DNA of 64,000 nt from an uncultured Alphaproteobacteria bacterium (GTDB lineage: Bacteria; Pseudomonadota; Alphaproteobacteria; HIMB59; GCA-002718135), in NCBI GenBank assembly GCA_902587565.1, contig CACILT010000006.1, forward strand, positions 821 through 64,820. The letters run 5' to 3'. How positions within the stretch are numbered: position 1 is the first letter of the stretch; each line of letters starts with the position of its first letter. This document shows, one piece after another, positions 45,447-63,308 of the stretch. The notes below the pieces were generated by a model. The model saw only the letters and a program-made list of their open reading frames with translations. It made no database searches and had not been told where the DNA came from. A program made the translations under genes and the position numbers.

Positions 45447-45500
45447 GATTTTTTGAAAAGTCTATTTATATTTTATTTACATTAATGTTATATTGCTACA

Positions 45501-45588
45501 GGGAGGATTGAGGGCAAATAAATTGCTAATCCAGTCAGATCTGAAAAGAAGCAGCTGTAACAATCTTGTTTGGGTCTCAACTCCTTCC
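45501..45588 (+). ncRNA. ffs: Signal recognition particle RNA (small bacterial 4.5S type); ends approximate
   Basis: The conserved domain IV core UCCAGUCAGAUCU-GAAA-AGAAGCAGCUG closely parallels E. coli CCAGGUCAGGUCC-GGAA-GGAAGCAGCC. The terminal helix GGGAGGATTGAG / CTCAA(C)TCCTTCC has 12 bp with one bulge. It lies immediately upstream of dnaX, the usual alphaproteobacterial location. Confidence 0.85.
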
Positions 45589-45598
45589 ATTGATTATA

Positions 45599-52234: not shown

Positions 52235-53997
52235 TGAATCTATCAAATTTAAAAAAATTACAAAATCTATTAAAAGAAAAAGAAATCGATATTTTTGTCA
52301 TTAATAGAAGTGATGAATATTTAAATGAGTATATTTCCCCAAATGCAGAAAGATTAAATTTTGTAACAAATTTTTCTGGTTCAGCAGGAAGAGCAATTAT
52401 AACGCCAACAAATGCCTTCTTGTATGTTGATGGACGATATACTTTTCAAGCGAATACTCAAATTAATGCTAAAGAAATTCAGCCAAAACATTTAAATAGC
52501 TTTTGGACAGATTTAGAAAAAATTTTATTAGAAGCAGAATATAAAATTGCATTAGACTCAACTCTTCATTCAATTATAGAAATTGAAAAAGTGGAAAAAA
52601 TTTTAGAGAATTCAACATCTCAACTCCAACTAATAGATAAAAATTTTGTTGATTTAATATGGGAGAATCAACCAAAAACTCAGTATACAGATATATTTGA
52701 TCACCCAACAAGTTTTGCTGGTCAGGGCAGACGTGAAAAATTAGATATTTTAAAAAAATTTTTAGATCAAAATGAAATTGATCATTACTTTGTTTCTGGG
52801 CTTGATAATATTGCTTGGCTATTAAATTTAAGAGCAGATGATATTAAGTATACACCGCTGCTTTATTCTTATCTTCTAATTTCAAAAAATAATAAACACT
52901 CTTTGTATATTAAAGAGTCTTCAATGCCAGAAATTCTAAAAAAAGAAATCCAAACACTAATAAATATTAATAATATTGAAAGTATTGGATCAATTTTTAA
53001 TAACATTAATTCATCTGAATCAATTGGTTTAGATTTTAATTCTACCACTTATTATTTTTTAGATCTTTTAAGAAAACAAAAAATAAATACTAAAAATTTA
53101 GCAAATCCATGTATTTTGTTAAAAGCTATCAAAAATGAAACTGAACTAGATGGGACCAAAAAAGCACATATAAGAGATGGTGTTAGTATTACTAAATATA
53201 TTTATTGGTTAAAAAATATCATGGATCCTAAATCAAATGATGAAATAAGTGTTGCACAACATTTAGAAAGTCTTCGAAGAAAAAATGAATTATTTCATTC
53301 TCTATCTTTTGACACAATATCAGCAATTGATAAAAATGCAGCCCTTCCTCATTACCGTGTTACTGAAGAAGGAAAATCATCTTTCTCAGATAATAACATT
53401 TACCTTGTTGACTCAGGAGGGCAATATTTTGATGGAACAACCGATATAACAAGAACTATAATTTTAGGTGAAGCAACAAAAGAACAAAAAGATAGATTTA
53501 CGAGAGTTCTTAAAGGTCATATTGCTTTATCAAATCATGTTTTTGAAAAAGGAACAAAAGGAACTGACATTGATTATCTAGCAAGAAAAAGTCTGCAAGA
53601 AATTAATTTAGATTATGATCATGGGACAGGTCACGGTATCGGAAGTTTTTTGAGTGTTCATGAAGCCCCACAACGTATTGCAAAAAAATCAATGTTTGAT
53701 AGCGTTGAGTTGCTTCCAGGAATGATTTTATCCAATGAACCTGGATACTATAAAGAAAATGAATATGGGATAAGAACTGAAAATTTAGTTGTAATTAATG
53801 AGAATGCTAATAAAAAATTATACTTTGAAACTATTTCTTGGTGTCCAATTGATTTAGATCTTATTGATAGCACTCAATTAAATGAAATTGAGAAAGAGTG
53901 GCTAAATAAATATCACTCACAGGTGTATGAAAAATTAGAGTCTTTCCTTGGAGATGAAGAGAGAAATTGGCTTAAGAGAGTAACTTTGAAAATTTAA
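52231..53997 (+). CDS. pepP: Xaa-Pro aminopeptidase (M24B family)
   Basis: The C-terminal pita-bread domain has the metal ligands VDSGGQY..GTTDITR, HGTGHGIG, SNEPGYY and IRTEN. 588 aa with long N-terminal creatinase-like domains. Confidence 0.88.
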   Translation: MMNLSNLKKLQNLLKEKEIDIFVINRSDEYLNEYISPNAERLNFVTNFSGSAGRAIITPTNAFLYVDGRYTFQANTQINAKEIQPKHLNSFWTDLEKILLEAEYKIALDSTLHSIIEIEKVEKILENSTSQLQLIDKNFVDLIWENQPKTQYTDIFDHPTSFAGQGRREKLDILKKFLDQNEIDHYFVSGLDNIAWLLNLRADDIKYTPLLYSYLLISKNNKHSLYIKESSMPEILKKEIQTLININNIESIGSIFNNINSSESIGLDFNSTTYYFLDLLRKQKINTKNLANPCILLKAIKNETELDGTKKAHIRDGVSITKYIYWLKNIMDPKSNDEISVAQHLESLRRKNELFHSLSFDTISAIDKNAALPHYRVTEEGKSSFSDNNIYLVDSGGQYFDGTTDITRTIILGEATKEQKDRFTRVLKGHIALSNHVFEKGTKGTDIDYLARKSLQEINLDYDHGTGHGIGSFLSVHEAPQRIAKKSMFDSVELLPGMILSNEPGYYKENEYGIRTENLVVINENANKKLYFETISWCPIDLDLIDSTQLNEIEKEWLNKYHSQVYEKLESFLGDEERNWLKRVTLKI

Positions 53998-54000
53998 CTT

Positions 54001-54029
54001 AAGCCGCCGATTATGCGGCTTTCTTATTT
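54001..54029. terminator. Bidirectional intrinsic terminator hairpin
   Basis: AAGCCGC-cgattat-GCGGCTT is a perfect 7-bp GC-rich stem, followed by TCTTATTTAT on the plus strand. It starts 4 nt after the pepP stop and contains the stop codon of the convergent 58-aa ORF in its loop. Confidence 0.7.
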
Positions 54030-54187
54030 ATATCAAATTCAGTTTTTAAAAGATGCTTATCTAATTCTATTTTCCATTCCTTTCCATATTCAGATTTAAA
54101 ATATTTTATTAAATCCTCGTCTCTATTGTAGTTTTTGTCACTCAAATCTTCGTATACTTTAATAAAAAAGTTAAAAACATTAATCAT
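54011..54187 (-). CDS. Small hypothetical protein (58 aa), absent from the supplied ORF track
   Basis: ATG at 54187 is preceded by AAAGGA about 8 nt upstream. It translates as MINVFNFFIKVYEDLSDKNYNRDEDLIKYFKSEYGKEWKIELDKHLLKTEFDINKKAA. The stop TAA (54011-54013) lies inside the terminator loop. I recognise no family motif. Confidence 0.4.
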   Translation of the reverse strand: MINVFNFFIKVYEDLSDKNYNRDEDLIKYFKSEYGKEWKIELDKHLLKTEFDINKKAA

Positions 54188-54255
54188 ATAAAATTCCTTT
54201 CATATTTTATGTAATAAATTTTATATGCAATAACAGTATAAATTTATGAATTTTG

Positions 54256-54274
54256 ATATGCATAAAATGCATAT
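54256..54274. promoter_or_regulatory. Perfect 8-3-8 palindrome ATATGCAT-AAA-ATGCATAT (candidate operator)
   Basis: Read directly from the sequence. A third ATATGCA copy lies at 54223-54229, 33 nt upstream. All three are in the divergent spacer between the 58-aa ORF and the binding-protein gene. Confidence 0.35.
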
Positions 54275-54384
54275 AACAATTACATATATAATTTTTATAG
54301 AATATCAAAAATACCGATTTTAAATCAATTTTTACTATTAAAATTTAAGTTTTAATTAATTAAAGACATTTAATTCGTTCATCA

Positions 54385-54413
54385 TTGACTTTATATTTTA
54401 AATACGGTTCAAT
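54385..54413 (+). promoter_or_regulatory. Candidate sigma-70 promoter for the binding-protein cluster
   Basis: TTGACT (54385-54390), a 17-nt spacer, then TTCAAT (54408-54413). The GGAGGG RBS at 54434-54439 and ATG 54444 follow. Such matches arise easily in AT-rich DNA. Confidence 0.25.
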
Positions 54414-54443
54414 CTTTTGATAATCATTTTAATGGAGGGTAAA

Positions 54444-55739
54444 ATGAAAAAAAAGATCTCTAGGAGAAAGTTTATTAACCATACAGGTTCTGCTGCTCTT
54501 GCAGGTACTCTATTATCGCAAGTTGGTATGAAGTATGCATTTGCTGCTAACACTAAACCAGTAAGTCTTTTGCTTGGTTCACATATGGATTATTTGCAAG
54601 CTTTAGCTCCTGCTTATGCAGAAAAATATGGTGTTACACCAAGTATAGAAACAGTAACAACACCAGATCTATCTGTTAAATTAAATTCAGCGTATATTGC
54701 AAGAAAAAGTGTAGGTGATGCTATATTTGTGACTGCTTCAGAAATTGCTGGTTTAGCTGATAAGGGTTGGTTGATGGATATGAGTGATTTTGTCAATGAT
54801 ACATTAAAACCAAATGGCGTTATGGAAAACAGTCTAACTGCCGCAACTTACAAAGGCAAAGTCTATGCTGCCCCAATTACGATTGGTTGCCCAGTACTGC
54901 ACTGGAATAAAAATTTACTTAAAAATGCAGGATTGGATACAGAAGCGCCTAATAATTGGCATCGTACAAAAAATTCTTGGAAAGAACTTATTCGTTTTGC
55001 TAAAGAAATTAACGATCCTGATAATGATATATATGGTATTGTTGATGCTTGGGCAGGTACTCATAGTTTTTGGACTTTTGGAGCTTTACTTCAAGCGAAT
55101 GGAGGAAGTTTCTTAGACGGAAATCTAGATCCGATCATGAATAGTGATGCGGGTGTTGAAGCTTTAAATATGATGGTTGATCTTTTACATAAAGATAAAA
55201 TCATTGACCCAGCTACGCCTACTTACACTTGGGTATTCGATGCATCTCCAAGCTATATGGCAGGGAAAAGAGGATTTTTCTTAACATGGCCATTTATTAG
55301 TGGAATTGCAAATTTCACAGAAGATTCTGCAGTGCAAGGTATGAGTGGCATAGCACCACTTCCTGCATTAGAAACTTCTGCATCTGTGGATGGATCAGAA
55401 TTTTTAGCAATACCTAAATATTCAGATAATCCTGAGGCAGGAATGCAATTTATTGAAATGGCTTTAAGTCCTGACAATCAGATATTGCAAGGTTCAACTT
55501 CGCCTTGGGCACCATCTTTAGAACCTGCTCTAGATCATCCAGATGTTCTGAAAAATATATCAATGGCAGGTGTTATTAAAGACTCATATCTATATCCTGT
55601 AGATGCAGGTTTTTCTGCAGATAGAAATCAATGGGTTGAATTATTATCAAATGAAGTTTCATTAGCATTGACTCAAAAGAAAAGTGCTAAAGATGCTTTA
55701 AATGATGCTGTTAAGCAAATTAATGCGAGCAGATCATAA
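54444..55739 (+). CDS. ABC transporter periplasmic solute-binding protein, family 1 (CUT1 sugar-type), with twin-arginine signal
   Basis: MKKKISRRKFINHTGSAALAGTLLSQVGMKYAFA is a Tat-type signal. The mature part is about 400 aa with the family 1 pattern (..AAPITIGCPVLHWNK.., WAGTHSFW). I set the start at ATG 54444, after the GGAGGG RBS. Confidence 0.85.
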   Translation: MKKKISRRKFINHTGSAALAGTLLSQVGMKYAFAANTKPVSLLLGSHMDYLQALAPAYAEKYGVTPSIETVTTPDLSVKLNSAYIARKSVGDAIFVTASEIAGLADKGWLMDMSDFVNDTLKPNGVMENSLTAATYKGKVYAAPITIGCPVLHWNKNLLKNAGLDTEAPNNWHRTKNSWKELIRFAKEINDPDNDIYGIVDAWAGTHSFWTFGALLQANGGSFLDGNLDPIMNSDAGVEALNMMVDLLHKDKIIDPATPTYTWVFDASPSYMAGKRGFFLTWPFISGIANFTEDSAVQGMSGIAPLPALETSASVDGSEFLAIPKYSDNPEAGMQFIEMALSPDNQILQGSTSPWAPSLEPALDHPDVLKNISMAGVIKDSYLYPVDAGFSADRNQWVELLSNEVSLALTQKKSAKDALNDAVKQINASRS

Positions 55740-55758
55740 TTAATAAAATACGCAAATT

Positions 55759-56553
55759 ATGAAAGTTAATTTGGGTAATTATACATGGGAGGAAGTTAAG
55801 GACTTATCAGATAAAGATCCGGTTGTTCTTCTTCCTCTTGGTGCATTTGAGCAGCATGGAAAACATTTACCGCTCAAAGTAGATGAATTTATGGTTAATA
55901 ATATTGCCAATGAGTCTGTAAAAAAATCTCACCAAAAGAATATTAATGCAGTTGTGGCACCAGTTATTTGGTCAGGTTATTCACCACATCATATGGATTT
56001 TCCTGGTACGATTTCTATTAAGGATGAAACTTTAACAAATGTTATATTGGATATAGTTGAGAGTTTGGTAAAAAATAAATTAGAAAGAATAATTATTTTG
56101 AATGGGCATGGAGGCAATATTGCTATTCTTAAAAATGTTGGACAAAAGTTAAAATACGATAAAAATATTTATATAGCTACAGCATCATATTGGGATTTTG
56201 CTATGAAAGAAATTAATGAGTGGAGAGATTCTGATCTTGGTGGAATAAATCATGCATGTGAAATGGAAACAGCACTTATGTTACATATGCAAGAGGAGAT
56301 AGTTAAAAAAGATAAAATTGTCGACAACCCATTAAAAAGATCTTCATATACAGGAGTTGATCTTTTATCAGGTGGTTCAGTTGGAGTAAGTGCAAGCTTT
56401 AAAGAGCTTTCAGATCATGGAGTTATTGGCTCACCAAGTCTTGCTTCCAAAAAGAAAGGCACTGAACTTTATGAGATAATAACAGATAAAGTTTCAGACT
56501 TTATTGAAGATTTTTCAAAATGGACAAAACCTTTAAATGGTAAAAATGAATAA
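55759..56553 (+). CDS. Creatininase-family metal-dependent amidohydrolase
   Basis: LLPLGAFEQHGKHLPL..VDE, SPHHMDFPGTIS, LNGHGGN and HACEMET match the conserved metal-ligand pattern of the creatinine amidohydrolase / MftE / ArfB family. 264 aa. Confidence 0.8.
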   Translation: MKVNLGNYTWEEVKDLSDKDPVVLLPLGAFEQHGKHLPLKVDEFMVNNIANESVKKSHQKNINAVVAPVIWSGYSPHHMDFPGTISIKDETLTNVILDIVESLVKNKLERIIILNGHGGNIAILKNVGQKLKYDKNIYIATASYWDFAMKEINEWRDSDLGGINHACEMETALMLHMQEEIVKKDKIVDNPLKRSSYTGVDLLSGGSVGVSASFKELSDHGVIGSPSLASKKKGTELYEIITDKVSDFIEDFSKWTKPLNGKNE

Positions 56554-57757
56554 AAAAGATTTAGCCTTATTTTGTTATCCCTGGGACGTAATTGATGAAG
56601 GTTATGATGCAATTATTGATGCAGTAAAGAGAAGTGGACTTAATGCAATTTATATTACTGTAAATTATCACTCAGGAATGTTTTTTTTACCTCATAGTAA
56701 AAAAAGAAAAATATATTTTCCTGAACCTGGGGCTTTATACTTCAATCCAAGTAGTTGGCATAACAATCATAGTTTTCAATCCCCTATAAGTAATCTTACT
56801 GAGAATTGGAGTCAGTTTTGGGAAGAATTATCAAATCAATGTAAAAAAAATAATATCAAATTATGCGCATGGATGCTTGGTACTCATAATTCTGGAATTG
56901 GAAATAATTATCCCAATACATCTGTATATAATGCTTGGGGTGATCCAATCACACACTCTCTATGTCCCTTTAATTTGGAAGTAGTTGATCATTTTGTCAA
57001 TTTATCAAGAGATGTAGTAAATCTAGGTGTATTTGATAAAATTCTAATTGAATCTCTTGAATATCTTCCATTAAGACACGGGCATCACCATGAAGTAATT
57101 GGAGTAGATTTTTCAGCTGATATCGATTTTATTATGTCACTTAACTTTAGTAATAAATGTTTAGAGACTTTGAAGCAAAAAAATATTGATGGTGAAATGA
57201 TTAGAAACTGGGTTAAAAAAACTACAGATGATTATTTTAATCAAAAAACAAATAAAGAAGTTATGAATTGGTCTGATTTTCAAAGTATTCTTGATGGTGA
57301 GTTTTGGAATTACTATTTGGCAAGAGAAGAAAGTATAACAAACATCAATACTTTGGTAGTCAATGAATTACGAAAAGATAAAAATTTAAAAATTGGTTTA
57401 GTTGACTTTGGCCCATTATATCCACTTGGTCCTAATAATCAGAGATGGCAAAATGGTGTAAATTTAAATTCTCTATTGCCCTTGATTGATGAAATTCATC
57501 CAACTTTTTATTTTGCAGATTTAGATCTGATAAAAGAAAAATATGATGTTTATAAAAAAGTATTAAATAACAAAGTTGAAATGATACCTGCAATGAGAAC
57601 AATCCTTCCACAAGTTTCTAATCAATTAGATCTTAAGAACCAACTTCAAGTATTTAATAAAGATGCATCAGGATTTAGCTTCTATAACTACTCATTTATG
57701 AATTATGAAAACTTAGACTGGATTAATCAAGGTCTGTCTGAAAATGGAGATATTTGA
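56537..57757 (+). CDS. Hypothetical protein, 406 aa (possibly a TIM-barrel hydrolase-like fold with a His cluster)
   Basis: Long uninterrupted ORF that overlaps the creatininase gene by 17 nt (8 nt if ATG 56546 is used). I recognise no signature motif. Notable segments are NAIYITVNYHSG, CPFNLEVVDHF and ESLEYLPLRHGHHHEV. The fold suggestion is a guess. Confidence 0.6.
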   Translation: MVKMNKKDLALFCYPWDVIDEGYDAIIDAVKRSGLNAIYITVNYHSGMFFLPHSKKRKIYFPEPGALYFNPSSWHNNHSFQSPISNLTENWSQFWEELSNQCKKNNIKLCAWMLGTHNSGIGNNYPNTSVYNAWGDPITHSLCPFNLEVVDHFVNLSRDVVNLGVFDKILIESLEYLPLRHGHHHEVIGVDFSADIDFIMSLNFSNKCLETLKQKNIDGEMIRNWVKKTTDDYFNQKTNKEVMNWSDFQSILDGEFWNYYLAREESITNINTLVVNELRKDKNLKIGLVDFGPLYPLGPNNQRWQNGVNLNSLLPLIDEIHPTFYFADLDLIKEKYDVYKKVLNNKVEMIPAMRTILPQVSNQLDLKNQLQVFNKDASGFSFYNYSFMNYENLDWINQGLSENGDI

Positions 57758-57759
57758 GA

Positions 57760-58515
57760 ATGAATACTACTGTTGATATTTTAATAAATCCCGTAACTTT
57801 AAGATTTAGTTATCACAATAGCGAATTAATTTATATGTTTGCTTCACATCCAGAACAACAACTTGATGAGATGGAAAAGCTTATGGGTGTAACTACTGAT
57901 GATGGACCAATTTTTGACACAAATGTTGGTTTTTTACCAGTAGCTTCAACTACACTAATTAGAGGTGAGAAAAATATTTTAGTTGATCCTGGTAATTATC
58001 ATATCGGTTTTTATTCTATATTAAAGAGAGCACTGGCTTCAAAAAATTTAACATATGAAGATATCGATATAGTAGCTACTACTCATACACATTCTGATCA
58101 TGCAGCTTCTATTGTTCATTTTAGAAATAAACCTTGGATTATTGGAAGCAAAGAATTTGATGATATGGTTGCTATTGAGGGGAAAGAAATTGTAGATGCT
58201 AAAAAATCGATGATGGGAGAAATAATTGAAATCTCAGATGATAATGAGACAAAAATTATGGAAAATGTCTATGCAATAACCACTCCGGGACATACAAATG
58301 GCCATATATCTTTTATAGTTAAAAGTAATGATGAAACTATTTTAATTGCTGGTGATCAAACTATGACAAAGGAAGAGTATTGTGAAAGAAAATTTTCTAG
58401 ATGGTATCCAGAAGCAAATTTAAAACAATTAAACGAATCACTAGATAAAGCACAAAGCTATAAACCAGATCTTGTAATTCCAGGACATGACAGATCTTTT
58501 AAACCAATCAAGTAA
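57760..58515 (+). CDS. Metallo-beta-lactamase-fold hydrolase
   Basis: THTHSDHAAS (HxHxDH), TPGHTNGH, GDQ and PGHD ligand motifs. The start is ATG 57760, or TTG 57754 which overlaps the upstream stop. Confidence 0.85.
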   Translation: MNTTVDILINPVTLRFSYHNSELIYMFASHPEQQLDEMEKLMGVTTDDGPIFDTNVGFLPVASTTLIRGEKNILVDPGNYHIGFYSILKRALASKNLTYEDIDIVATTHTHSDHAASIVHFRNKPWIIGSKEFDDMVAIEGKEIVDAKKSMMGEIIEISDDNETKIMENVYAITTPGHTNGHISFIVKSNDETILIAGDQTMTKEEYCERKFSRWYPEANLKQLNESLDKAQSYKPDLVIPGHDRSFKPIK

Positions 58516-59416
58516 TTCTCAATTCAAATTTTCAAGAGAAAAAATTCTTGCTTTTACACTAATACTTCCTTCTTTAATTCTAGTTTTTATAACTTATTTA
58601 TACCCAGCTATATTTACTTTTGTAATAAGTTTTGCCGAATATGATATAATTCGCTTAAAAATAAAAAAATTTATTCAATTTAAAAACTTTGAATTTTTAA
58701 TAAGTAATTATTTTTTTACAAGTTCTGTCTTAAGAACTATTTACTTCGGGTTTTTGATCTGTGTGTGTACAACAATACTTTCTTTCTTGATCGCACTTCT
58801 TTTAAATGAAAAATTTATTGGAAAAGCATTTTTAAGAGTCATGATTGTATTACCTTGGGCAGTGCCATCTGTTGTTTCTGGTGTACTGTGGGGACAAATG
58901 TTTCATGCTGATACAGGGTTTTTAAATGCTTTATTATATCAATTAGGGGTCATATCAGGTTACAAAATTTGGTTAGCAGATCCATTAGTAGCCCTTCATG
59001 TAATAGCTATTGCTGAAATCTGGAAAGCAATTCCTTTCATGACATTATTTTTTTTATCAGGATTACAAAGTTTACCCTCGGAAGTTTTTGAGGCTGCTGC
59101 AGTTGATGGAGCAAATGTATTTCAAAGGTTCTCTAACATTTTATTTCCTTTAATGTTACCAATTGCGATACCACTTTTCTTGATACAATTTGTTTTAGCA
59201 ATGAAATCATTTGATACAATTTTTGTTCTTACAAGAGGGGGGCCAGGGGGTGGAACAACAACATTAAATTATTTTATTTATCAAGAAGCATTTGAAACTT
59301 TTAATCTAGGCCGAGCTTCAGCAGCTGCCTATGTTTTGCTAATAATTACTTTAGCTGTTGTATTAATTCCAACTATTTCAAGATTTCTAATAAAATTTTT
59401 TTGGGGTAATAAATGA
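58487..59416 (+). CDS. ABC transporter permease (MalF/UgpA-like, CUT1)
   Basis: Six predicted hydrophobic segments and EAA loop LPSEVFEAAAVDGANVFQRF..ILFPLM. 309 aa. Confidence 0.88.
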   Translation: MTDLLNQSSNSQFKFSREKILAFTLILPSLILVFITYLYPAIFTFVISFAEYDIIRLKIKKFIQFKNFEFLISNYFFTSSVLRTIYFGFLICVCTTILSFLIALLLNEKFIGKAFLRVMIVLPWAVPSVVSGVLWGQMFHADTGFLNALLYQLGVISGYKIWLADPLVALHVIAIAEIWKAIPFMTLFFLSGLQSLPSEVFEAAAVDGANVFQRFSNILFPLMLPIAIPLFLIQFVLAMKSFDTIFVLTRGGPGGGTTTLNYFIYQEAFETFNLGRASAAAYVLLIITLAVVLIPTISRFLIKFFWGNK

Positions 59417-60246
59417 AAAAAAATTTGATTCTAAAAAATTTTTTTATTTATTTTTCTGCACTCATAGTATTTTTGATAATGTTTTTTCCACTATACGGTT
59501 TGATATTAACAAGTTTACAACCTGAAAATATAATTAGATCTAGAAATTTGTCTTTTTTTCCTACAGAAATTATATTTACTCATTTTGCTGAGGTTTTGAA
59601 GCCTAATCATATATCTAATATTTATGAGGGTATTAAAAATAGTCTTATTGTTTCATTCCTCACATCTTTTTTATGCATAATTTTAGCTTTTCCTGCAGCA
59701 TACTCACTTGCAAGATTAAATTTACCAGCTAAAAATATTATCCTTGGAACTTTAATTTCTATTTATTTTCTTCCAACAATACTTTTTGTAATTCCCTTAT
59801 TTGTTATATTAGTTTCATATCAACTAGATGACACTATTTTAAGTCTAGTTGTTCCGTATACTGCTTTTACATTACCTTTTGTGATCTGGATTTTAAAATC
59901 ATTTATTGATAAGCTACCTGTTGAGGTAGAGGAAGCTGCAAAAATTGATGGTTGTTCTACTCTACAACTTTTAATTCACATCATTTTCCCTTTATTGAGA
60001 CCTGGTTTAATAGCAGCCTTCATATTTGCATTTATTTTATCTTGGGTTGAATTTTTAACACCTTTAATATTTACTAATAATTTGAAAATTTCTACAGTAG
60101 CTCTTGGATTATTTAGGAGCACTATAGACATTAAAATTGGTCAACAAGCTGCAGCTGCAATAATTACTTTAATTCCAGTAACAATACTAATGATTTTTTT
60201 TCAACAATATATTACAAAAGTAGTATTATCGGGAAGTGATAAATAA
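59413..60246 (+). CDS. ABC transporter permease (MalG/UgpE-like, CUT1)
   Basis: EAA loop LPVEVEEAAKIDGCSTLQLL..IIFPLLRPG. 277 aa. It overlaps the preceding permease gene by 4 nt. Confidence 0.88.
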   Translation: MKKNLILKNFFIYFSALIVFLIMFFPLYGLILTSLQPENIIRSRNLSFFPTEIIFTHFAEVLKPNHISNIYEGIKNSLIVSFLTSFLCIILAFPAAYSLARLNLPAKNIILGTLISIYFLPTILFVIPLFVILVSYQLDDTILSLVVPYTAFTLPFVIWILKSFIDKLPVEVEEAAKIDGCSTLQLLIHIIFPLLRPGLIAAFIFAFILSWVEFLTPLIFTNNLKISTVALGLFRSTIDIKIGQQAAAAIITLIPVTILMIFFQQYITKVVLSGSDK

Positions 60247-61253
60247 TGAGTAAATTAAAAATTGCAGTTATTGGAACTGGTTTAGTTGGCACATTTCATG
60301 CAGAAGTTTTTTTTAGAAATCCTAATTCTGAGCTTGTTGCTGTTTGTGATGTAGATAAAGAAAAGGTTAATTCTGTTGCACAATCATTTAATTGTAAAGC
60401 TTATGAAGATTTTACAAAATTAATAAACACTGAAACACTAGATGCTATTAGTATTGCTACACCTGAACAAATAAGAATAGAGCCTGCTGTTATGTCAGTA
60501 AAAAAAGGTTTAAAAATTTTGCTAGAAAAACCTCTCGGTAGAAATTTGGAAAAAATACATGAGTTAGTCGATAAAATAAAAGATCATAACAAAATTATTT
60601 CTGTAAATTTTATTCTTCACGAAGATCCGCGATATAAATTAATGAAAGAAAAAGTTAAAAATGACGAAATTGGCAATATCGTATCTTGTTTTGCACGAAG
60701 AAGGGGTAACAGGTTTGGAATTGAAATTTATGCTCCATGGACTGACCTTTTATCTTCAACTTTAATCCATGATATTCAAATGACCATGTCCATTAATAAA
60801 TCAAAGCCAGTAAGAGTTTTTGCAGAGGCAGTTATTAGAGAATGTAAGGAATATGATTCGCATGATGCTGTGATGGCAATCATGAAATTTGATGATGGAA
60901 GTTTGGCTTCCTTTGAAACATCTTGGGTATTGCCTAAAAATCAACCTGAGCCACTTGATCCAGCACTTCATGTTATAGGAGATAAAGGATCAATTATTAT
61001 AGAAGGATCATCAATGGGTTTGCAGATGCAAACAGAAACAAATTATATGAAGCCGGATATTGCTAATTGGCCAACTATAGACTCAAAAGTGGACGGGTGT
61101 TTAAAGAGGGGTTTAGATAAATTTATTGACGACTGCGTTTTTGATCAAAAACCAGCGGTAAATTTACAGGCTGCTTTAGAAGCAGAAAGAGTCGTATTTG
61201 CGATGAAGGAATCAATTGCTAAAGGTATTCCAATCGATATTAATATATCGTAA
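60246..61253 (+). CDS. Gfo/Idh/MocA family NAD(P)-dependent oxidoreductase
   Basis: N-terminal Rossmann motif KIAVIGTGLVGTFHA, the ILLEKPL motif, and a C-terminal alpha/beta domain. 335 aa. Its ATG shares one nt with the permease stop. Confidence 0.85.
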   Translation: MSKLKIAVIGTGLVGTFHAEVFFRNPNSELVAVCDVDKEKVNSVAQSFNCKAYEDFTKLINTETLDAISIATPEQIRIEPAVMSVKKGLKILLEKPLGRNLEKIHELVDKIKDHNKIISVNFILHEDPRYKLMKEKVKNDEIGNIVSCFARRRGNRFGIEIYAPWTDLLSSTLIHDIQMTMSINKSKPVRVFAEAVIRECKEYDSHDAVMAIMKFDDGSLASFETSWVLPKNQPEPLDPALHVIGDKGSIIIEGSSMGLQMQTETNYMKPDIANWPTIDSKVDGCLKRGLDKFIDDCVFDQKPAVNLQAALEAERVVFAMKESIAKGIPIDINIS

Positions 61254-61275
61254 ATTTTAAATTCTTTAAATTTTA

Positions 61276-62379
61276 ATGATAATTATATTAACACAATGTT
61301 TTCCATCAAGAGTTGGAGGGATAGAAACACTAATGTACAATATAGCATTGCACCTTAGTCGTTCTAAAGATGTAATTGTATTAGCAGATCAACAAAATTT
61401 TAAGGAAGATAATATTTTTGATCAAAATGAAATAAATTTTTCTACAAAAAGATTTCGAGGTATAAAGTTTTTCAGAAATAGAAAAAAGTTTAATGAACTT
61501 AAAAAAATACATGGTTTATCAAAAATTGATGCAGTAATTAGTGATAGTTGGAAAAGTCTTGAAGTAACAATAGATTTTCTTAAAAAAAATAAAATACCAG
61601 TTATCAGCTTAGCTCATGGTAATGAAATAATAATTAAAAATGATAAGCATCATAAACGTGTAAAAAAAATATTAGAATATGCAAATGCAATAGTAGTAAA
61701 TTCAAACTACACAAAAAATTTACTAAATAAAATAAGTAATAATTTTAAAAATGTTAAAATAATATACCCAGGTATTAATATTAAAAAAAATTATATTGAA
61801 GAAAATATAAGTTTAAATCAAGGTTCGCCAAAATTACTTACTCTTGCAAGACTTGAAAAGAGAAAAGGTCATGCTTTAATTTTAAAATCTATAATGAACT
61901 TAAAAAAATATTTTCCTGATATTCAATACATAATTGCAGGTGAGGGTGAGGAACTAGATAGTATTAAAAATAAAATTAAAGAATACAATCTTCAAGATAA
62001 TGTAAATTTAGTTGGTACCGTTAACGAAAATCAAAAAAATTATATATTCTCTAATACTGATGTAATGATCATGCCAACCCTAGATGAGAGTTCAGCGAAA
62101 TCAATTGAAGGATTTGGTATAGCCTACATAGAAGCAGCAAATTTCAAAATACCCTCAATAGCATCTAATATAGGTGGTACTCCTGAAGCAGTAATTCACA
62201 ATAAAACAGGCTTAATAATAAAAGATATTGAAGAATTAGATGAAGCAATAAAAAGCTTAATAGATAATAAAGAAAACAGATTAAAACTTGGTCAAAATGC
62301 TAAAATTAGAGCAGAAAATGAACTTAACTGGGATATTCAAATCAAAAAATACAATGATTTAATTAAAGAAATTCAATGA
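61276..62379 (+). CDS. Glycosyltransferase family 4 (group 1)
   Basis: N-terminal FPSRVGGIETL and C-terminal IEGFGIAYIEAANFKIP (E-x7-E). 367 aa. Confidence 0.8.
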   Translation: MIIILTQCFPSRVGGIETLMYNIALHLSRSKDVIVLADQQNFKEDNIFDQNEINFSTKRFRGIKFFRNRKKFNELKKIHGLSKIDAVISDSWKSLEVTIDFLKKNKIPVISLAHGNEIIIKNDKHHKRVKKILEYANAIVVNSNYTKNLLNKISNNFKNVKIIYPGINIKKNYIEENISLNQGSPKLLTLARLEKRKGHALILKSIMNLKKYFPDIQYIIAGEGEELDSIKNKIKEYNLQDNVNLVGTVNENQKNYIFSNTDVMIMPTLDESSAKSIEGFGIAYIEAANFKIPSIASNIGGTPEAVIHNKTGLIIKDIEELDEAIKSLIDNKENRLKLGQNAKIRAENELNWDIQIKKYNDLIKEIQ

Positions 62380-63308
62380 CAATATTATTTCATAATACAA
62401 CATTTGATAAAATAGATGTTTGGAAAAAAACAATAAAAAAATATTTTAAAAACGAAAAAATAATTTCTATAAAAGATTATAAAAAATTTAATGATGTAAA
62501 CTGTGCTATAATTTGGAATCTACCAGATGATATTCTTTCAAGACTAAAAAATCTTAAAGTTATTTTTTCTATGGGTGCTGGTGTAGATCACATTTTAAAA
62601 CTAAAGAATTATAATAAGAAAATTCCTATAATCAGAATAAAAGATGAAGAAATGGGGGAGAGAATAGCTAATTATTCTCTAGCTCAAATACTAAATTATC
62701 AATTAAATTTTAAAATTTTTCAAAATTCTCAAAGTAAACATTACTGGTCTGGCGAAAGGACACCAATTGATAATAAAAATTTAACTGTAGGTATTTTAGG
62801 TCTAGGCTTCCTTGGTAATCATATTGCAAGATTACTAAATAAATTAAATTATAATGTTATTGCGTATAAAAAAAATCAAAAAAAAGTAAAAAATATAAAA
62901 ATATATACCGGTAAAAATATTATAAGTTTTATTAAAAGCTCTGATGTTATCGTGTCTATTTTACCATCAACACCTCAAACGAATAATATAATAGATAAAA
63001 AGTTTTTAAAGAATATGAAAAAAAATTCTTGCTTAATAAATATAGGTAGAGGTAATGTAATTGAAGAGAAAGACCTTTTAAATCATTTAAAGAAAAACAA
63101 AAATTTTTATGCTTATTTGGATGTCTTTAAAAATGAACCTTTAAAATCAAGTAGTCAATTTTGGAAATTACCAAATGTAACAATTACACCACATGTAGCA
63201 GGTGTAACCGCCATAGAGCCTTCTGTTAAATACATGCACTCCAAATATAAAAAACTAAGGAAAAATAAAAACGTAAAATCAGATGTTAATCCATCTAATG
63301 GATATTAA
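62376..63308 (+). CDS. D-isomer-specific 2-hydroxyacid dehydrogenase family protein (glyoxylate/hydroxypyruvate reductase-like)
   Basis: NAD motif GILGLGFLGNHIA, NIGRGNVIEEKDL, LDVFKNEPL and TPHVAG catalytic His region. 310 aa. Confidence 0.85.
   Translation: MTILFHNTTFDKIDVWKKTIKKYFKNEKIISIKDYKKFNDVNCAIIWNLPDDILSRLKNLKVIFSMGAGVDHILKLKNYNKKIPIIRIKDEEMGERIANYSLAQILNYQLNFKIFQNSQSKHYWSGERTPIDNKNLTVGILGLGFLGNHIARLLNKLNYNVIAYKKNQKKVKNIKIYTGKNIISFIKSSDVIVSILPSTPQTNNIIDKKFLKNMKKNSCLINIGRGNVIEEKDLLNHLKKNKNFYAYLDVFKNEPLKSSSQFWKLPNVTITPHVAGVTAIEPSVKYMHSKYKKLRKNKNVKSDVNPSNGY

What the first reader, a model, noticed from the sequence alone, without database searches (positions are those of the whole stretch)
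54444..61253. Orphan cluster of binding protein, creatininase-like hydrolase, unknown protein, MBL hydrolase, permeases and oxidoreductase: candidate uncharacterised uptake and catabolic module
Seven co-directional genes are packed with overlaps or spacers of 20 nt or less, which suggests a single operon. In order they are a Tat-signal family 1 binding protein, a creatininase-family amidohydrolase, a 406-aa protein I cannot assign, an MBL-fold hydrolase (HxHxDH), two CUT1-type permeases with clear EAA loops, and a Gfo/Idh/MocA oxidoreductase. Three things are unusual. Three enzyme genes sit between the binding-protein gene and the permease genes. No ABC ATPase and no regulator are encoded in the cluster or nearby in this window. 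The cluster follows the only long non-coding spacer in an otherwise spacer-free window. I cannot map this enzyme combination onto any characterised pathway. One reading is import of a glycoside, lactone or cyclic amide. The oxidoreductase would oxidise it to a lactone or keto intermediate, and the MBL and creatininase-type enzymes would open the ring or remove an acyl group. In a genome this streamlined, a dedicated seven-gene module implies an ecologically relevant substrate.
Basis: partly seen in the sequence, partly recalled or inferred. Interest (0 to 1): 0.8.

Follow-up and report, generated by a model that had tools for sequence, protein, structure and literature searches.

The report
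Conserved unknown-substrate sugar uptake and breakdown operon
This is a real seven-gene operon for importing and breaking down a sugar-like compound, and the same gene set recurs in at least six bacterial phyla and includes a new enzyme family, but its substrate is still unknown.

Summary
Seven co-directional, tightly packed genes (54444-61253) encode:
- a Tat-signal CUT1 binding protein
- a creatininase-fold metallohydrolase
- a 406-aa unassigned protein
- an MBL hydrolase
- two CUT1 permeases
- a Gfo/Idh/MocA dehydrogenase

All seven are under strong purifying selection (dN/dS 0.03-0.12).

The cluster is not an orphan. In 32 non-redundant loci from at least six phyla, creatininase-like, unknown and MBL genes sit adjacent in that order, together with the binding protein, the permeases and the dehydrogenase. 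Frequent extras are an MlrC-like peptidase (22/32), a HemL-like aminotransferase, RidA, an IclR regulator and a MalK ATPase. This window's lineage has lost these extras.

The unknown protein models confidently as a glycoside-hydrolase-like TIM barrel. It matches no Pfam family and carries an invariant HGHHHE loop. The MBL's nearest structures are almost all lactonases. The creatininase-like protein keeps the metal ligands but not the creatinine pocket.

My best reading is cytoplasmic oxidative catabolism (dehydrogenase, then lactonase) of an imported N-substituted sugar or glycoside. The substrate is unproven. I found no paper describing the cluster.

The cluster also behaves as a recombining cassette among near-identical genomes.

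The parts
54001..54021 (.). G+C-rich hairpin (AAGCCGCCGATTATGCGGCTT) followed by a T-run. It is a likely bidirectional terminator that closes the upstream M24 peptidase gene and the minus-strand small ORF, and so insulates the operon from upstream transcription.
   Evidence: Terminator scan; sequence.
54011..54187 (-). Conserved 58-aa small protein gene inside the supposed non-coding spacer. Its function is unknown. It lies inside the recombining cassette and is divergently oriented to the operon.
   Evidence: ORF. Conserved in all close SAGs and at 38% identity in MarineAlpha5_Bin5. dN/dS 0.027 at dS 1.4 against L016. No Pfam hit.
54257..54273 (.). Perfect palindrome TATGCAT-AAA-ATGCATA in the divergent intergenic region, a candidate operator. 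It is conserved across cluster alleles even though the surrounding spacer diverges.
   Evidence: Sequence; inverted repeat I11; alignment A2.
54384..54443 (+). Nearly invariant promoter/operator/ribosome-binding block: ATTGACTTTATATTTTAAATACGGTTCAAT, then a -10-like GATAAT (TATAAT in most alleles), then the GGAGGG Shine-Dalgarno sequence before the SBP ATG. The same block sits upstream of the SBP gene in MarineAlpha5_Bin5, downstream of its MlrC gene, so the seven-gene unit has its own promoter.
   Evidence: Alignment A2; promoter-like hit 54397-54424. No Rfam family reaches its gathering score.
54444..55739 (+). Periplasmic substrate-binding protein of a CUT1-type ABC importer, 431 aa, with a twin-arginine (SRRKF) signal.
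   Evidence: PF01547/PF13416. Nearest solved structure is the T. litoralis trehalose/maltose-binding protein 1eu8, E 8e-29. dN/dS 0.03-0.05.
55759..56553 (+). Creatininase-fold binuclear metallo-amidohydrolase, 264 aa. It is not a creatininase and its substrate is unknown. It is the first gene of the invariant triad.
   Evidence: PF02633, E 4e-67. Below the cut-offs of MftE, creatininase and IolN. Metal ligands and the catalytic His are conserved, but Y121, E122 and W174 of the creatinine pocket are replaced by Gly.
56537..57757 (+). 406-aa member of a new glycoside-hydrolase-like (beta/alpha)8-barrel family, with invariant acidic and His residues at the C-terminal ends of the barrel strands and an invariant HGHHHE loop (residues 181-186). 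It is the second gene of the triad.
   Evidence: No Pfam, NCBIfam or PDB sequence hit. AF2 model pLDDT 91. Foldseek top hits are the PgaB C-terminal GH153 domain (E 1e-12, TM 0.6), beta-amylase, GH35 and GH42. Weak GHL10/GHL13 hits in 9 of 42 homologues. Invariant residues from alignment A1. Family size 1934 50%-identity clusters.
57754..58515 (+). MBL-fold dizinc-type hydrolase, most likely a lactonase, with a conserved ~60-aa N-terminal extension. The probable start is ATG 57760. It is the third gene of the triad.
   Evidence: PF00753. HxHxDH, H178, D199 and H243 are invariant. Best NCBIfam hits are AiiA, AttM and AidB lactonases, all far below cut-off. AF2 pLDDT 95. The Foldseek top 50 are almost all lactonases: AiiA, 4-pyridoxolactonase, GcL, AiiB, AidC.
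58487..59416 (+). CUT1 ABC permease, MalF/UgpA-like, with an EAA loop.
   Evidence: PF00528. Best NCBIfam hits UgpA and MalF. dN/dS 0.05.
59413..60246 (+). CUT1 ABC permease, MalG/UgpE/GlcU-like, with an EAA loop.
   Evidence: PF00528. Best NCBIfam hits GlcU, MalG and UgpE. dN/dS 0.05.
60246..61253 (+). Cytoplasmic Gfo/Idh/MocA NAD(P)-dependent sugar or cyclitol dehydrogenase, 335 aa.
   Evidence: PF01408, PF22725 and PF02894. Closest are IolG and archaeal UDP-GlcNAc 3-dehydrogenase, both below cut-off. Nearest PDB entries are inositol 2-dehydrogenases. GxGxxG, EKP and H175-D176 are invariant.
53600..61500 (.). Approximate extent of the recombining cassette (3' end of the M24 gene, small ORF, spacer, seven genes, 5' end of GT4). 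Inside it, nucleotide identity to SAG AG-422-E02 drops to 76-92%, against 94-98% in both flanks.
   Evidence: Sliding identity; dS 0.5-1.4 inside against 0.1-0.24 outside; conserved flank synteny.

Best explanation
**What it is.** The seven genes form one operon with its own conserved promoter. It is the streamlined core of a catabolic module of up to about 12 genes found in many phyla.

**How it most likely works**
1. A Tat-exported CUT1 binding protein and two MalF/MalG-type permeases import a sugar-sized, probably glycosidic solute. They are powered by a MalK/MsiK-type ATPase encoded elsewhere in this genome.
2. Four cytoplasmic enzymes then process the solute.
   - The new glycoside-hydrolase-like TIM-barrel protein cleaves, or otherwise transforms, a glycosidic linkage.
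   - The Gfo/Idh/MocA dehydrogenase oxidises a sugar hydroxyl, most likely the anomeric carbon, to a lactone.
   - The MBL enzyme opens that lactone to a sugar acid.
   - The creatininase-fold metallohydrolase removes an N-acyl group or opens an amide or lactam bond.
3. In relatives, further genes fit deamination of an amino-sugar acid to a 2-keto-3-deoxy acid and removal of an attached amino acid or peptide. These are a HemL-like PLP enzyme, RidA, an MlrC-like peptidase, an RraA-like aldolase and a KdgR-like IclR regulator.

**Shown:** gene content, operon structure, cross-phylum co-occurrence, folds, intact catalytic motifs, purifying selection.

**Inferred:** the order of steps, the site of oxidation, the nitrogen-containing nature of the substrate, and its identity.
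For: **Operon anatomy**
- Overlaps and short spacers.
- A conserved promoter/Shine-Dalgarno block, also present in a relative where MlrC precedes it.
- An upstream terminator.

**Co-occurrence**
- The creatininase-like, unknown and MBL genes are adjacent in that order in all orthologous loci that hold all three.
- Counts in 32 non-redundant loci: unknown protein 32, creatininase-like 30, MBL 29, Gfo/Idh/MocA 29, SBP 28, permeases 28, MlrC 22, aminotransferase 14, IclR 12, MalK 10, RidA 10.
- Pfam-annotated neighbourhoods in Mesorhizobium, Rubrobacter, Dethiobacter, Pelagibacterium, Armatimonadota and Amylibacter.
- In Pelagibacterium montanilacus the 12-gene unit is bracketed by two transposase genes.

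**Enzyme assignments**
- The unknown protein is a GH-like TIM barrel.
- The MBL's nearest structures are almost all lactonases and its metal ligands are invariant.
- The creatininase-like protein keeps the metal and catalytic residues but has an altered pocket.
- The Gfo/Idh/MocA motifs are intact.
- None of the four enzymes has a signal peptide (sequences).

**Evidence for nitrogen and a sugar acid**
- The aminotransferase is HemL/GntE-like; the IclR regulator is close to KdgR, PcaR and BhcR; the RraA-like protein resembles HMG/CHA aldolases.
- The Rubrobacter cluster is followed by a KduD that passes its equivalog cut-off.
- Distant paralogues of the unknown protein again sit with an NAD oxidoreductase, MlrC, RidA and amino-acid enzymes next to a CUT1 transporter.
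- Published precedent: the ong pathway for oxidised chitin sugars uses a deacetylase, a PLP deaminase and an essential RidA to reach KDG (PMC9537276).

**Selection:** dN/dS 0.03-0.12.
Against: - No enzyme reaches an equivalog cut-off, so every activity is inferred from superfamily or fold.
- The SBP's closest solved relatives bind neutral disaccharides (trehalose/maltose), not amino sugars.
- The dehydrogenase is closest to inositol 2-dehydrogenases. That fits C2/C3 or cyclitol oxidation as well as C1 oxidation.
- The His-rich invariant loop of the TIM-barrel protein is not typical of classical glycosidases. It could mean a metal-dependent lyase or isomerase.
- This window's lineage lacks the MlrC, aminotransferase, RidA and RraA genes nearby. 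The nitrogen-related steps are therefore not needed for the core function, or are encoded elsewhere.
- KduD is confirmed in only one lineage. The other neighbouring SDRs are generic.
Confidence: 0.55

Rival explanations
1. Cyclitol (inositol-like or aminocyclitol) catabolism on the Thermotoga model. The Gfo/Idh/MocA enzyme oxidises a ring hydroxyl to a ketone or diketone. The creatininase-fold enzyme acts as a C-C hydrolase that opens the carbocycle, as IolN does. The MBL and TIM-barrel proteins process the resulting keto acid or lactone.
For: - The dehydrogenase's best hits are IolG and inositol 2-dehydrogenases.
- The creatininase-like protein hits the IolN model at E 4e-25.
- NCBIfam shows that IolN is a creatininase-family enzyme. 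From my own knowledge, it works with a Gfo/Idh/MocA dehydrogenase and a CUT1 transporter in T. maritima.
- In Rubrobacter a second creatininase-family gene and an IolM-like Zn-dehydrogenase lie just downstream.
Against: - The IolN score is 88 against a cut-off of 245, and the protein scores higher against MftE and creatininase.
- The conserved set contains no IolM-type second dehydrogenase and no IolO-type epimerase.
- This model does not explain the GH-like barrel, the lactonase-like MBL or the MlrC-like peptidase.
Confidence: 0.12
2. Oxidative, non-hydrolytic cleavage of a neutral glycoside such as trehalose or another disaccharide. The dehydrogenase makes a 3-keto-glycoside. The His-rich TIM-barrel protein acts as a metal-dependent beta-eliminase or hydratase, in the role of DgpBC, LgdB or BT2157-type enzymes. 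The two metallohydrolases handle downstream products.
For: - The SBP is closest to a trehalose/maltose-binding protein.
- Both the unknown protein and its distant paralogues sit next to an NAD-dependent oxidoreductase.
- The invariant HGHHHE loop suggests a metal site.
- DgpA, levoglucosan dehydrogenase and glucuronide 3-dehydrogenase are among the PDB hits of the dehydrogenase.
Against: - The TIM barrel resembles glycosidases, not the xylose-isomerase-like lyases of the known 3-keto pathways, and it has no PF01261 hit.
- There is no ThuA-like partner.
- Known 3-keto pathways need neither a lactonase-like MBL nor a creatininase-fold enzyme.
- The nitrogen-related accessory genes are unexplained.
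Confidence: 0.12
3. Catabolism of a sugar-amino acid conjugate that also exists in lactone and lactam forms (Amadori or opine-like compounds such as the deoxyfructosyl-glutamine, chrysopine or agropine family, or a glycosylated amino acid or peptide). The MBL opens the lactone, the creatininase-fold enzyme opens the lactam, the dehydrogenase interconverts the polyol and keto forms, and MlrC, the aminotransferase and RidA deal with the amino-acid part.
For: - An MlrC-like peptidase is present in 22 of 32 loci, and a HemL-like PLP enzyme and RidA are frequent.
- HemL chemistry (alpha-amino-aldehyde to alpha-amino-ketone) parallels Amadori-type rearrangement (inference).
- The paralogous cluster carries ornithine cyclodeaminase-family, D-serine-dehydratase-like and aldehyde dehydrogenase genes.
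- From my own knowledge, CUT1 systems can carry Amadori compounds (B. subtilis FrlONM).
Against: - No homologue of a known deglycase, amadoriase or opine enzyme is present.
- The window's lineage keeps the core without any amino-acid-handling gene.
- Carriers come from open ocean, hot springs and soda lakes, which is not the habitat of plant opines.
- This rival overlaps the best explanation and cannot be separated from it with these tools.
Confidence: 0.1
4. The seven genes are an accidental juxtaposition of unrelated genes packed together by genome streamlining, not one functional unit.
For: The whole window is gene-dense with many overlapping junctions. Two further co-directional genes follow without a terminator.
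Against: - The same seven families are clustered in at least six phyla with different flanks.
- The cluster is exchanged as one block between genomes.
- It is bracketed by transposases in one genome.
- The MBL and the unknown protein belong to small families of matching distribution.
Confidence: 0.01

Closest known systems
Thermotoga maritima myo-inositol cluster (InoEFGK CUT1 transporter, IolG Gfo/Idh/MocA dehydrogenase, IolM, IolN creatininase-family hydrolase, IolO). The pathway is recalled from my own knowledge; the family relations come from NCBIfam NF041098 and TIGR04380.
   Same: To my knowledge it is the only characterised carbohydrate pathway that combines a CUT1 ABC importer, a Gfo/Idh/MocA dehydrogenase and a creatininase-fold hydrolase in one cluster. 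All enzymes are cytoplasmic and metal- or NAD-dependent.
   Different: Scores are far below the IolN and IolG cut-offs. There is no IolM- or IolO-type gene. This cluster instead has a lactonase-like MBL and a new GH-like barrel, plus nitrogen-related accessory genes in relatives.
ong pathway for C1-oxidised chitin sugars in Pseudoalteromonas (PMC9537276)
   Same: It follows the same logic as the proposed route: a glycosidase releases an amino-sugar acid, an amidohydrolase deacetylates it, a PLP enzyme and an essential RidA deaminate it to 2-keto-3-deoxygluconate, and a dedicated transporter and repressor are present.
   Different: None of the enzymes is homologous (GH20, D-aminoacylase-type deacetylase, D-amino-acid-deaminase-type PLP enzyme, SSS transporter, TonB receptors). 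In the ong pathway the sugar acid is made outside the cell by LPMOs. Here a cytoplasmic dehydrogenase and lactonase would make it.
Dehydrogenase-plus-lactonase oxidative sugar routes (for example Gfo6-type xylose dehydrogenase with a lactonase in haloarchaea, or glucose-fructose oxidoreductase with gluconolactonase). Recalled from my own knowledge; Gfo6 is among the weak NCBIfam hits.
   Same: A Gfo/Idh/MocA enzyme oxidises the anomeric carbon, a dedicated lactonase opens the product, and 2-keto-3-deoxy acid steps follow.
   Different: Those routes act on free monosaccharides. They lack a glycosidase-like barrel, a creatininase-fold enzyme and a peptidase. No dehydratase is conserved here.
PgaB C-terminal domain (GH153) and the GHL10/GHL13 'glycosyl hydrolase-like' families
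   Same: They are the best structural match of the 406-aa protein: a (beta/alpha)8 barrel with conserved acidic residues on the C-terminal face. PgaB binds GlcN and GlcNAc.
   Different: Identity is only about 12% and TM about 0.6. The protein belongs to no Pfam family. It carries a family-specific invariant HGHHHE loop, is cytoplasmic and is a single domain.

Membership tests
CUT1 (carbohydrate uptake transporter 1) ABC importer | Family 1 extracytoplasmic solute-binding protein | tested here: met
   PF01547 E 1e-33 and PF13416 E 3e-26; signal peptide with SRRKF.
CUT1 (carbohydrate uptake transporter 1) ABC importer | Two MalF/MalG-type permeases with EAA loops | tested here: met
   PF00528 in both. 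Best hits are UgpA/MalF and GlcU/MalG/UgpE. EAA motifs are visible in the translations.
CUT1 (carbohydrate uptake transporter 1) ABC importer | MalK/MsiK-type ATPase with a C-terminal OB/TOBE domain | tested here: not met
   None in the 64-kb window. Present inside orthologous clusters in 10 of 32 loci. The rest of this genome could not be searched.
Creatininase (creatinine amidohydrolase, EC 3.5.2.10) | Creatininase fold with binuclear metal ligands and the catalytic His | tested here: met
   PF02633 E 4e-67. The equivalents of E34, H36, D45, H120, H178 and E183 are conserved in the alignment to 3a6j.
Creatininase (creatinine amidohydrolase, EC 3.5.2.10) | Equivalog-level score and creatinine-pocket residues (Y121, E122, W174) | tested here: not met
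   TIGR04448 scores 124.6 against a cut-off of 235. Y121, E122 and W174 all align to Gly.
IolN (3-dehydro-scyllo-inosose hydrolase) | Equivalog-level score and an IolM-type partner dehydrogenase in the cluster | tested here: not met
   NF041098 scores 88.5 against a cut-off of 245. No Zn-dehydrogenase is among the conserved neighbours.
MftE (mycofactocin peptidyl-dipeptidase) | Equivalog-level score and a mycofactocin gene context | tested here: not met
   TIGR03964 scores 135.6 against a cut-off of 172. No radical-SAM or MftA-D genes are in any locus.
MBL-fold lactonases (AiiA, AttM, 4-pyridoxolactonase type) | HxHxDH plus the distal His, Asp and His metal ligands | tested here: met
   H109, H111, D113, H114, H178, D199 and H243 are invariant in 36 orthologues.
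MBL-fold lactonases (AiiA, AttM, 4-pyridoxolactonase type) | Closest structural relatives are lactonases | tested here: met
   Foldseek hits are AiiA, 4-pyridoxolactonase, GcL, AaL, AiiB, AidC and AhlX at E 1e-13 to 1e-10, TM about 0.6-0.66.
MBL-fold lactonases (AiiA, AttM, 4-pyridoxolactonase type) | Equivalog-level membership of a named lactonase family | tested here: not met
   AiiA scores 58 against 375, AttM 45 against 390 and 4-pyridoxolactonase 37 against 325. By motif spacing alone, the position three residues after the bridging Asp (Tyr in AiiA, from my own knowledge) is an invariant Met.
Glycoside hydrolase (clan of (beta/alpha)8 glycosidases; GH153, GHL10, GHL13) | (beta/alpha)8 barrel resembling known glycosidases | tested here: met
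   AF2 pLDDT 91. PgaB C-terminal domain at E 1e-12; beta-amylase, GH35 and GH42 at E 1e-11 to 1e-8.
Glycoside hydrolase (clan of (beta/alpha)8 glycosidases; GH153, GHL10, GHL13) | Sequence membership of a described GH or GHL family | tested here: not met
   No Pfam hit for the window protein. Only 7 of 42 homologues touch GHL10 (best E 0.0018) and 2 of 42 touch GHL13. No PDB sequence hit.
Glycoside hydrolase (clan of (beta/alpha)8 glycosidases; GH153, GHL10, GHL13) | Catalytic acid/base and nucleophile in the canonical positions; hydrolytic activity | not testable with these tools
   Candidates D17, E21, D136, E172, E186 and D290 are invariant. Model coordinates and residue-level superposition are not available, and activity needs an assay.
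Gfo/Idh/MocA oxidoreductases | N-terminal Rossmann domain with GxGxxG, the EKP motif and the C-terminal alpha/beta domain | tested here: met
   PF01408, PF22725 and PF02894. G10, G12, G15, E94-K95-P96 and H175-D176 are invariant. IolG scores 131.7 against 355 and UDP-GlcNAc 3-dehydrogenase 132 against 450, so no specific subfamily applies.

The most novel reading that the evidence does not exclude
The invariant triad (creatininase-fold hydrolase, new His-rich GH-like barrel, lactonase-like MBL) together with the dehydrogenase is a previously unknown enzymatic route. It lets streamlined SAR11-type bacteria, and members of at least five other phyla, consume an abundant nitrogen-containing sugar of dissolved organic matter. 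Candidates are a peptidoglycan- or chitin-derived amino-sugar disaccharide, or a glycosylated amino acid. The route would go through an amino-sugar lactone and acid to a 2-keto-3-deoxy acid without phosphorylation. The 406-aa protein would found a new glycoside-cleaving enzyme family.
Probability: 0.2. Interest if true: 0.85.

Novelty: new variant of a known kind. Interest (0 to 1): 0.6.

Why it matters
SAR11-type bacteria dominate the surface ocean, yet the list of compounds they are known to consume is short and contains few sugars. This locus is a dedicated module under strong purifying selection, and each of its proteins has hundreds of near-identical sequences in public metagenome-derived collections, including Tara Oceans. 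It recurs from open-ocean plankton to hot-spring and soda-lake bacteria. It is exchanged as a cassette between genomes. It contains a protein family with no described relatives.

Finding the substrate would add a defined compound to the marine carbon and nitrogen budget. It would probably also yield at least one new enzyme activity.

The work is tractable. Cultured bacteria (Mesorhizobium sp. YM1C-6-2, Pelagibacterium montanilacus, Nesterenkonia sphaerica, Rubrobacter taiwanensis) carry the full version with its regulator and ATPase.

Tried and rejected
- **Riboswitch or known RNA in the spacer.** Only sub-threshold Rfam matches. Rejected.
- **Sequence-level assignment of the 406-aa protein.** Pfam, NCBIfam and PDB sequence searches gave nothing. 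Only structure prediction helped.
- **Literature.** Five searches combined creatininase, MocA, MBL, MlrC, DUF1485, SAR11, IolN and solute-binding protein. One search targeted mycosporine catabolism. I also read two SAR11/AEGEAN-169 genomics papers. No description of this cluster turned up. [quoted passage not shown]
- **Named enzyme families.** I tested whether the enzymes are creatininase, IolN, MftE, AiiA or IolG. All fall below the curated cut-offs, and the creatinine pocket is not conserved.
- **KduD as a general neighbour.** It is confirmed only in Rubrobacter. SDRs near the cluster in six other lineages are generic. It is therefore weak evidence.
- **Remnants of MlrC or RraA in the window's spacer.** None at E 1e-3.
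- **Mycosporine-like amino acids as substrate.** Carriers come from sunlit habitats and the chemistry is attractive, but nothing here tests the idea. I kept it only as an untested candidate for screening.
- **GC-content anomaly as a sign of recent transfer.** None; 28-33% in the cluster, as in the flanks.
- **Exact taxon.** The nearest genomes are labelled only 'uncultured Alphaproteobacteria' SAGs and MarineAlpha5 MAGs. A TruA at least 90% identical is named 'Pelagibacteraceae bacterium' by NCBI. I could not place the window more precisely, and could not decide between SAR11 proper and a HIMB59-like group.

Full report

Yes. ORF listing gives seven plus-strand genes from 54444 to 61253. Their junctions are +19, -17, -4 (or +2), -29, -4 and -1 nt.

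- SBP_bac_1.
- Creatininase (PF02633, E 4e-67).
- An MBL with THTHSDH.
- Two BPD_transp_1 permeases whose best named relatives are UgpA/MalF and GlcU/MalG/UgpE.
- A Gfo/Idh/MocA dehydrogenase.
- The 406-aa protein matches nothing in Pfam, NCBIfam or PDB sequences.

The binding protein starts MKKKISRRKFINH...AFA|A, a twin-arginine-type signal. The four enzymes have no signal peptides, so the chemistry is cytoplasmic.

All seven genes are under strong purifying selection. dN/dS is 0.03-0.12 against two alleles that are saturated or nearly saturated at synonymous sites.

A tblastn scan of the whole window finds no MalK-type ATPase and no IclR, LacI, MlrC, class III aminotransferase, RidA or RraA homologue. 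The two other ABC ATPases in the window are a fused peptide-type ATPase and a short one of another kind.

**2. Corrections to the observation**

- The 446-nt 'spacer' is not all non-coding. It contains a bidirectional terminator hairpin (54001-54021). It also contains a 58-aa minus-strand gene (54011-54187) that is conserved in every close relative and under purifying selection (dN/dS 0.027).
- The real intergenic stretch is 256 nt. It carries no Rfam family at gathering score.
- It does carry two conserved elements. One is the perfect palindrome TATGCAT-AAA-ATGCATA (54257-54273). The other is a nearly invariant block from 54384 to the start codon (ATTGAC...TTCAAT, a -10-like hexamer, GGAGGG).
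- The same block precedes the binding-protein gene in MarineAlpha5_Bin5, although an MlrC gene lies just upstream there. The seven-gene unit therefore has its own promoter.
- Downstream, a GT4 glycosyltransferase and a 2-hydroxyacid dehydrogenase follow without a terminator. They belong to the conserved chromosomal backbone.

**3. The cluster is not an orphan**

The 406-aa protein has about 160 detectable homologues in a 5.8-billion-sequence collection. It has 396 relatives among 185,579 species genomes. A profile search finds 1934 clusters at 50% identity among 1.84 billion representatives. This is a small, single-domain family.

Gene neighbourhoods show the same seven families together (tblastn over 85 loci). 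The carriers are:
- Alphaproteobacteria: Mesorhizobium, Roseitalea, Pelagibacterium and many Rhodobacterales.
- Deinococcota: Trueperaceae.
- Actinomycetota: Rubrobacter, Nesterenkonia, Planktophila and others.
- Bacillota: Dethiobacter, Limnochordales.
- Chloroflexota.
- Armatimonadota.

The order creatininase-like, unknown, MBL is kept in every orthologous locus that holds all three.

De novo clustering of all ORFs in 32 non-redundant loci gives these counts:

| Family | Loci (of 32) |
|---|---|
| Unknown protein | 32 |
| Creatininase-like | 30 |
| MBL | 29 |
| Dehydrogenase | 29 |
| Binding protein | 28 |
| Permeases | 28 |
| MlrC-like M81 peptidase | 22 |
| Class III aminotransferase | 14 |
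| IclR | 12 |
| MalK | 10 |
| RidA | 10 |
| SDR | 7 |
| RraA-like | 5 |
| LacI | 4 |

Nothing else is conserved. Several contigs are short, so these counts are lower bounds.

In Pelagibacterium montanilacus the 12-gene version is bracketed by two transposase genes. The MBL orthologue group is as small as that of the unknown protein and comes from matching lineages.

**4. What is special about this lineage**

The closest relatives are single-cell genomes labelled 'uncultured Alphaproteobacteria' (97-99% identity) and two MarineAlpha5 MAGs. NCBI names a TruA at least 90% identical 'Pelagibacteraceae bacterium'.

In this lineage the triad sits between the binding-protein gene and the permease genes. 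In most other lineages the three transporter genes are contiguous.

MarineAlpha5_Bin5 shares the window's flanking genes. It has RraA-like and MlrC-like genes exactly where the window has its 256-nt spacer, and a RidA gene between the dehydrogenase and GT4. Bin7 also has RraA and MlrC upstream. The simplest reading is that the window's lineage lost these accessory genes and kept the seven-gene core.

The absence of an ATPase and a regulator is therefore a derived, streamlined state. CUT1 systems commonly borrow a shared MsiK/MsmX-type ATPase (my own knowledge).

**5. The proteins**

*The 406-aa protein.*
- AlphaFold2 with a 42-sequence alignment gives a confident model (pLDDT 91, pTM 0.91).
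- Foldseek places it among (beta/alpha)8 glycosidases. The best match is the PgaB C-terminal GH153 domain (E 1e-12, TM 0.6, 12% identity), followed by beta-amylase, GH35 and GH42.
- Only 9 of 42 homologues touch the Pfam GHL10 or GHL13 models, and only weakly.
- The invariant residues lie at or just after the C-terminal ends of the predicted barrel strands, the usual active-site face: D17, D20, E21, Y44, H45, H117, N118, D136, E172, H181, H184, H185, E186, D290, R354, N384.
- The invariant HGHHHE loop is unusual for a classical glycosidase. It suggests a metal site (inference).

*The MBL.*
- It models at pLDDT 95. Its top 50 structural neighbours are almost all lactonases: AiiA, 4-pyridoxolactonase, GcL, AaL, AiiB, AidC, AhlX. 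All metal ligands are invariant.
- It has a conserved N-terminal extension of about 60 residues with many invariant positions.

*The creatininase-like protein.* Aligned to P. putida creatininase, it keeps the metal ligands and the catalytic His. Y121, E122 and W174 of the creatinine pocket are replaced by Gly. That implies a larger or different substrate.

*The dehydrogenase.* It has GxGxxG, EKP and an invariant H-D pair. It is closest to inositol 2-dehydrogenases and an archaeal UDP-GlcNAc 3-dehydrogenase, and is far below both cut-offs.

*The binding protein.* It is closest to the T. litoralis trehalose/maltose-binding protein (E 8e-29).

**6. What the accessory genes say**

- The aminotransferase is HemL/GntE-like, that is, of the glutamate-1-semialdehyde aminomutase type.
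- The IclR regulator is nearest to PcaR, KdgR and BhcR.
- The RraA-like protein resembles HMG/CHA aldolases.
- The MlrC-like protein is far from true microcystinase.
- In Rubrobacter the gene after the dehydrogenase is a KduD that passes its equivalog cut-off. The SDRs near the cluster in other lineages are generic.
- Distant paralogues of the unknown protein (24-29% identity) sit next to an SDR. In Rhodobacterales they also sit with a CUT1 transporter, an NAD-dependent epimerase, an ornithine-cyclodeaminase-family protein, an MlrC-like peptidase, an aldehyde dehydrogenase, RidA and a D-serine-dehydratase-like enzyme.

This barrel family therefore recurs with an NAD oxidoreductase, an M81 peptidase, RidA and amino-acid enzymes beside a sugar importer. 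That pattern points to sugars that carry nitrogen or an amino-acid moiety. It also points to an oxidation step coupled to the barrel enzyme.

**7. Most likely mechanism**

1. A sugar-sized solute is imported.
2. The barrel enzyme cleaves or transforms a glycosidic bond.
3. The dehydrogenase oxidises the sugar, most simply at C1, to a lactone.
4. The MBL opens the lactone.
5. The creatininase-fold enzyme hydrolyses an N-acyl, amide or lactam bond.
6. In the full module, the PLP enzyme and RidA deaminate the product to a 2-keto-3-deoxy acid. KduD or RraA-like enzymes handle that acid, a KdgR-like IclR senses it, and the MlrC-like peptidase removes an attached amino acid or peptide.

The published ong pathway for oxidised chitin sugars follows the same logic with unrelated proteins: a glycosidase, a deacetylase, a PLP deaminase and an essential RidA lead to KDG (PMC9537276).

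Only the parts list, the folds, the motifs and the co-occurrence are shown. The order of steps, the oxidised carbon and the substrate are inferred.

I give 0.55 to this general reading. I give about 0.2 to the sharper claim that it is a new route for an amino-sugar or glyco-amino-acid component of dissolved organic matter. Rivals are a Thermotoga-like cyclitol route (0.12), a 3-keto-glycoside route for a neutral disaccharide (0.12) and an Amadori/opine-type lactone/lactam route (0.10). The last overlaps the main model.

**8. Comparison with known systems and novelty**

- The transporter is an ordinary CUT1 system that lacks its ATPase gene locally.
- The four enzymes belong to known superfamilies or folds. 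None belongs to a characterised family; every equivalog test failed.
- One of the four founds a family absent from Pfam.
- The nearest characterised cluster by composition is the Thermotoga inositol cluster. The nearest by logic is the ong pathway.
- I found no paper on this cluster. The search library does not cover most subscription journals.
- I therefore class it as a new variant of a known kind: an ABC-linked sugar catabolic operon with an undescribed enzyme set.

**9. Population genetics seen on the way**

- Against SAG AG-422-E02, both flanks are 94-98% identical in nucleotides. The stretch from about 53.6 to 61.5 kb drops to 76-92%, with sharp edges. dS is 0.5-1.4 inside and 0.1-0.24 outside.
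- Against MarineAlpha5_Bin5 the pattern reverses. Cluster proteins are 78-92% identical, while flank proteins are 51-64%.
- At least three alleles of the whole cluster, about 80% identical to each other, therefore circulate at one chromosomal site in backgrounds of very different divergence. The cluster is exchanged as a unit.
- The 90%-identity clusters of the cluster proteins hold 497-741 members, against 882-997 for flanking proteins. As a rough guide, a large part of the population, but perhaps not all of it, carries this allele.

Noticed in passing
window 53600-61500, compared with L016, L015 and L007: The whole cluster behaves as a recombining cassette. It is 76-92% identical in nucleotides to SAG AG-422-E02 while both flanks are 94-98% identical, with sharp boundaries inside the 3' end of the M24 gene and the 5' end of the GT4 gene. 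Against MarineAlpha5_Bin5 the cluster is more conserved than the flanks.
   Followed up: partly
window 54011-54187 (minus strand): A 58-aa ORF (MINVFNFFIKVYEDLSDKNYNRDEDLIKYFKSEYGKEWKIELDKHLLKTEFDINKKAA) lies inside the supposed non-coding spacer. It is conserved in all close SAGs and recognisable in MarineAlpha5_Bin5. dN/dS is 0.027. It has no Pfam hit and its function is unknown.
   Followed up: partly
window 54257-54273: The perfect palindrome TATGCAT-AAA-ATGCATA, with a related half-site (TATATGCAAT) about 30 nt upstream, is conserved across divergent spacer alleles. It may be an operator for a regulator encoded elsewhere. It lies between the small ORF and the operon promoter.
   Followed up: no
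window 57077-57094 (residues 181-186 of the 406-aa protein): An invariant His-rich loop (R-HGHHHE-V) is the only low-confidence segment inside the model (pLDDT <50 at residues 182-187). It suggests a metal-binding or mobile catalytic loop that is not typical of glycosidases.
   Followed up: no
window 57760-57940 (first ~60 residues of the MBL): The N-terminal extension before the MBL core has many invariant residues (P11, R15, F16, D36, E39, N55, G57, L59, P60). It could be a substrate lid or an interface with the neighbouring triad proteins.
   Followed up: no
L062 2500-19400, and similar loci L061, L065, L066, L068, L074, L082 (Rhodobacterales): A paralogous cluster holds a CUT1 transporter, an NAD-epimerase, a paralogue of the unknown protein, an SDR, an ornithine-cyclodeaminase-family protein, an MlrC-like peptidase, an aldehyde dehydrogenase, RidA and a D-serine-dehydratase-like enzyme. 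It looks like a second uncharacterised glyco-amino-acid pathway, possibly for a glycosylated hydroxyproline-type substrate.
   Followed up: partly
L086 1335-18992 (Pelagibacterium montanilacus): The 12-gene version of the module is bracketed by two same-orientation Transposase_mut (IS256-type) genes, like a composite transposon.
   Followed up: no
L002 13152-19418 (Rubrobacter taiwanensis): Directly downstream of the cluster lie a bona fide KduD, then a LacI regulator, a second creatininase-family gene (300 aa; IolN model 93 bits), a class II aldolase, a UPF0261 protein and an IolM/Tdh-like Zn-dehydrogenase. This may be a linked keto-sugar or cyclitol route.
   Followed up: partly
window 61276-63308: A GT4 glycosyltransferase and a D-2-hydroxyacid dehydrogenase follow the operon co-directionally (22-nt spacer, then a 4-nt overlap) with no terminator. 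Read-through from the operon promoter is possible, although these genes belong to the conserved backbone.
   Followed up: no
window 45499-45594 and 34764-34853: Bacterial small SRP RNA (56.9 bits) and a tRNA-Ser(GGA). These are the only structured RNA genes detected in the window.
   Followed up: no
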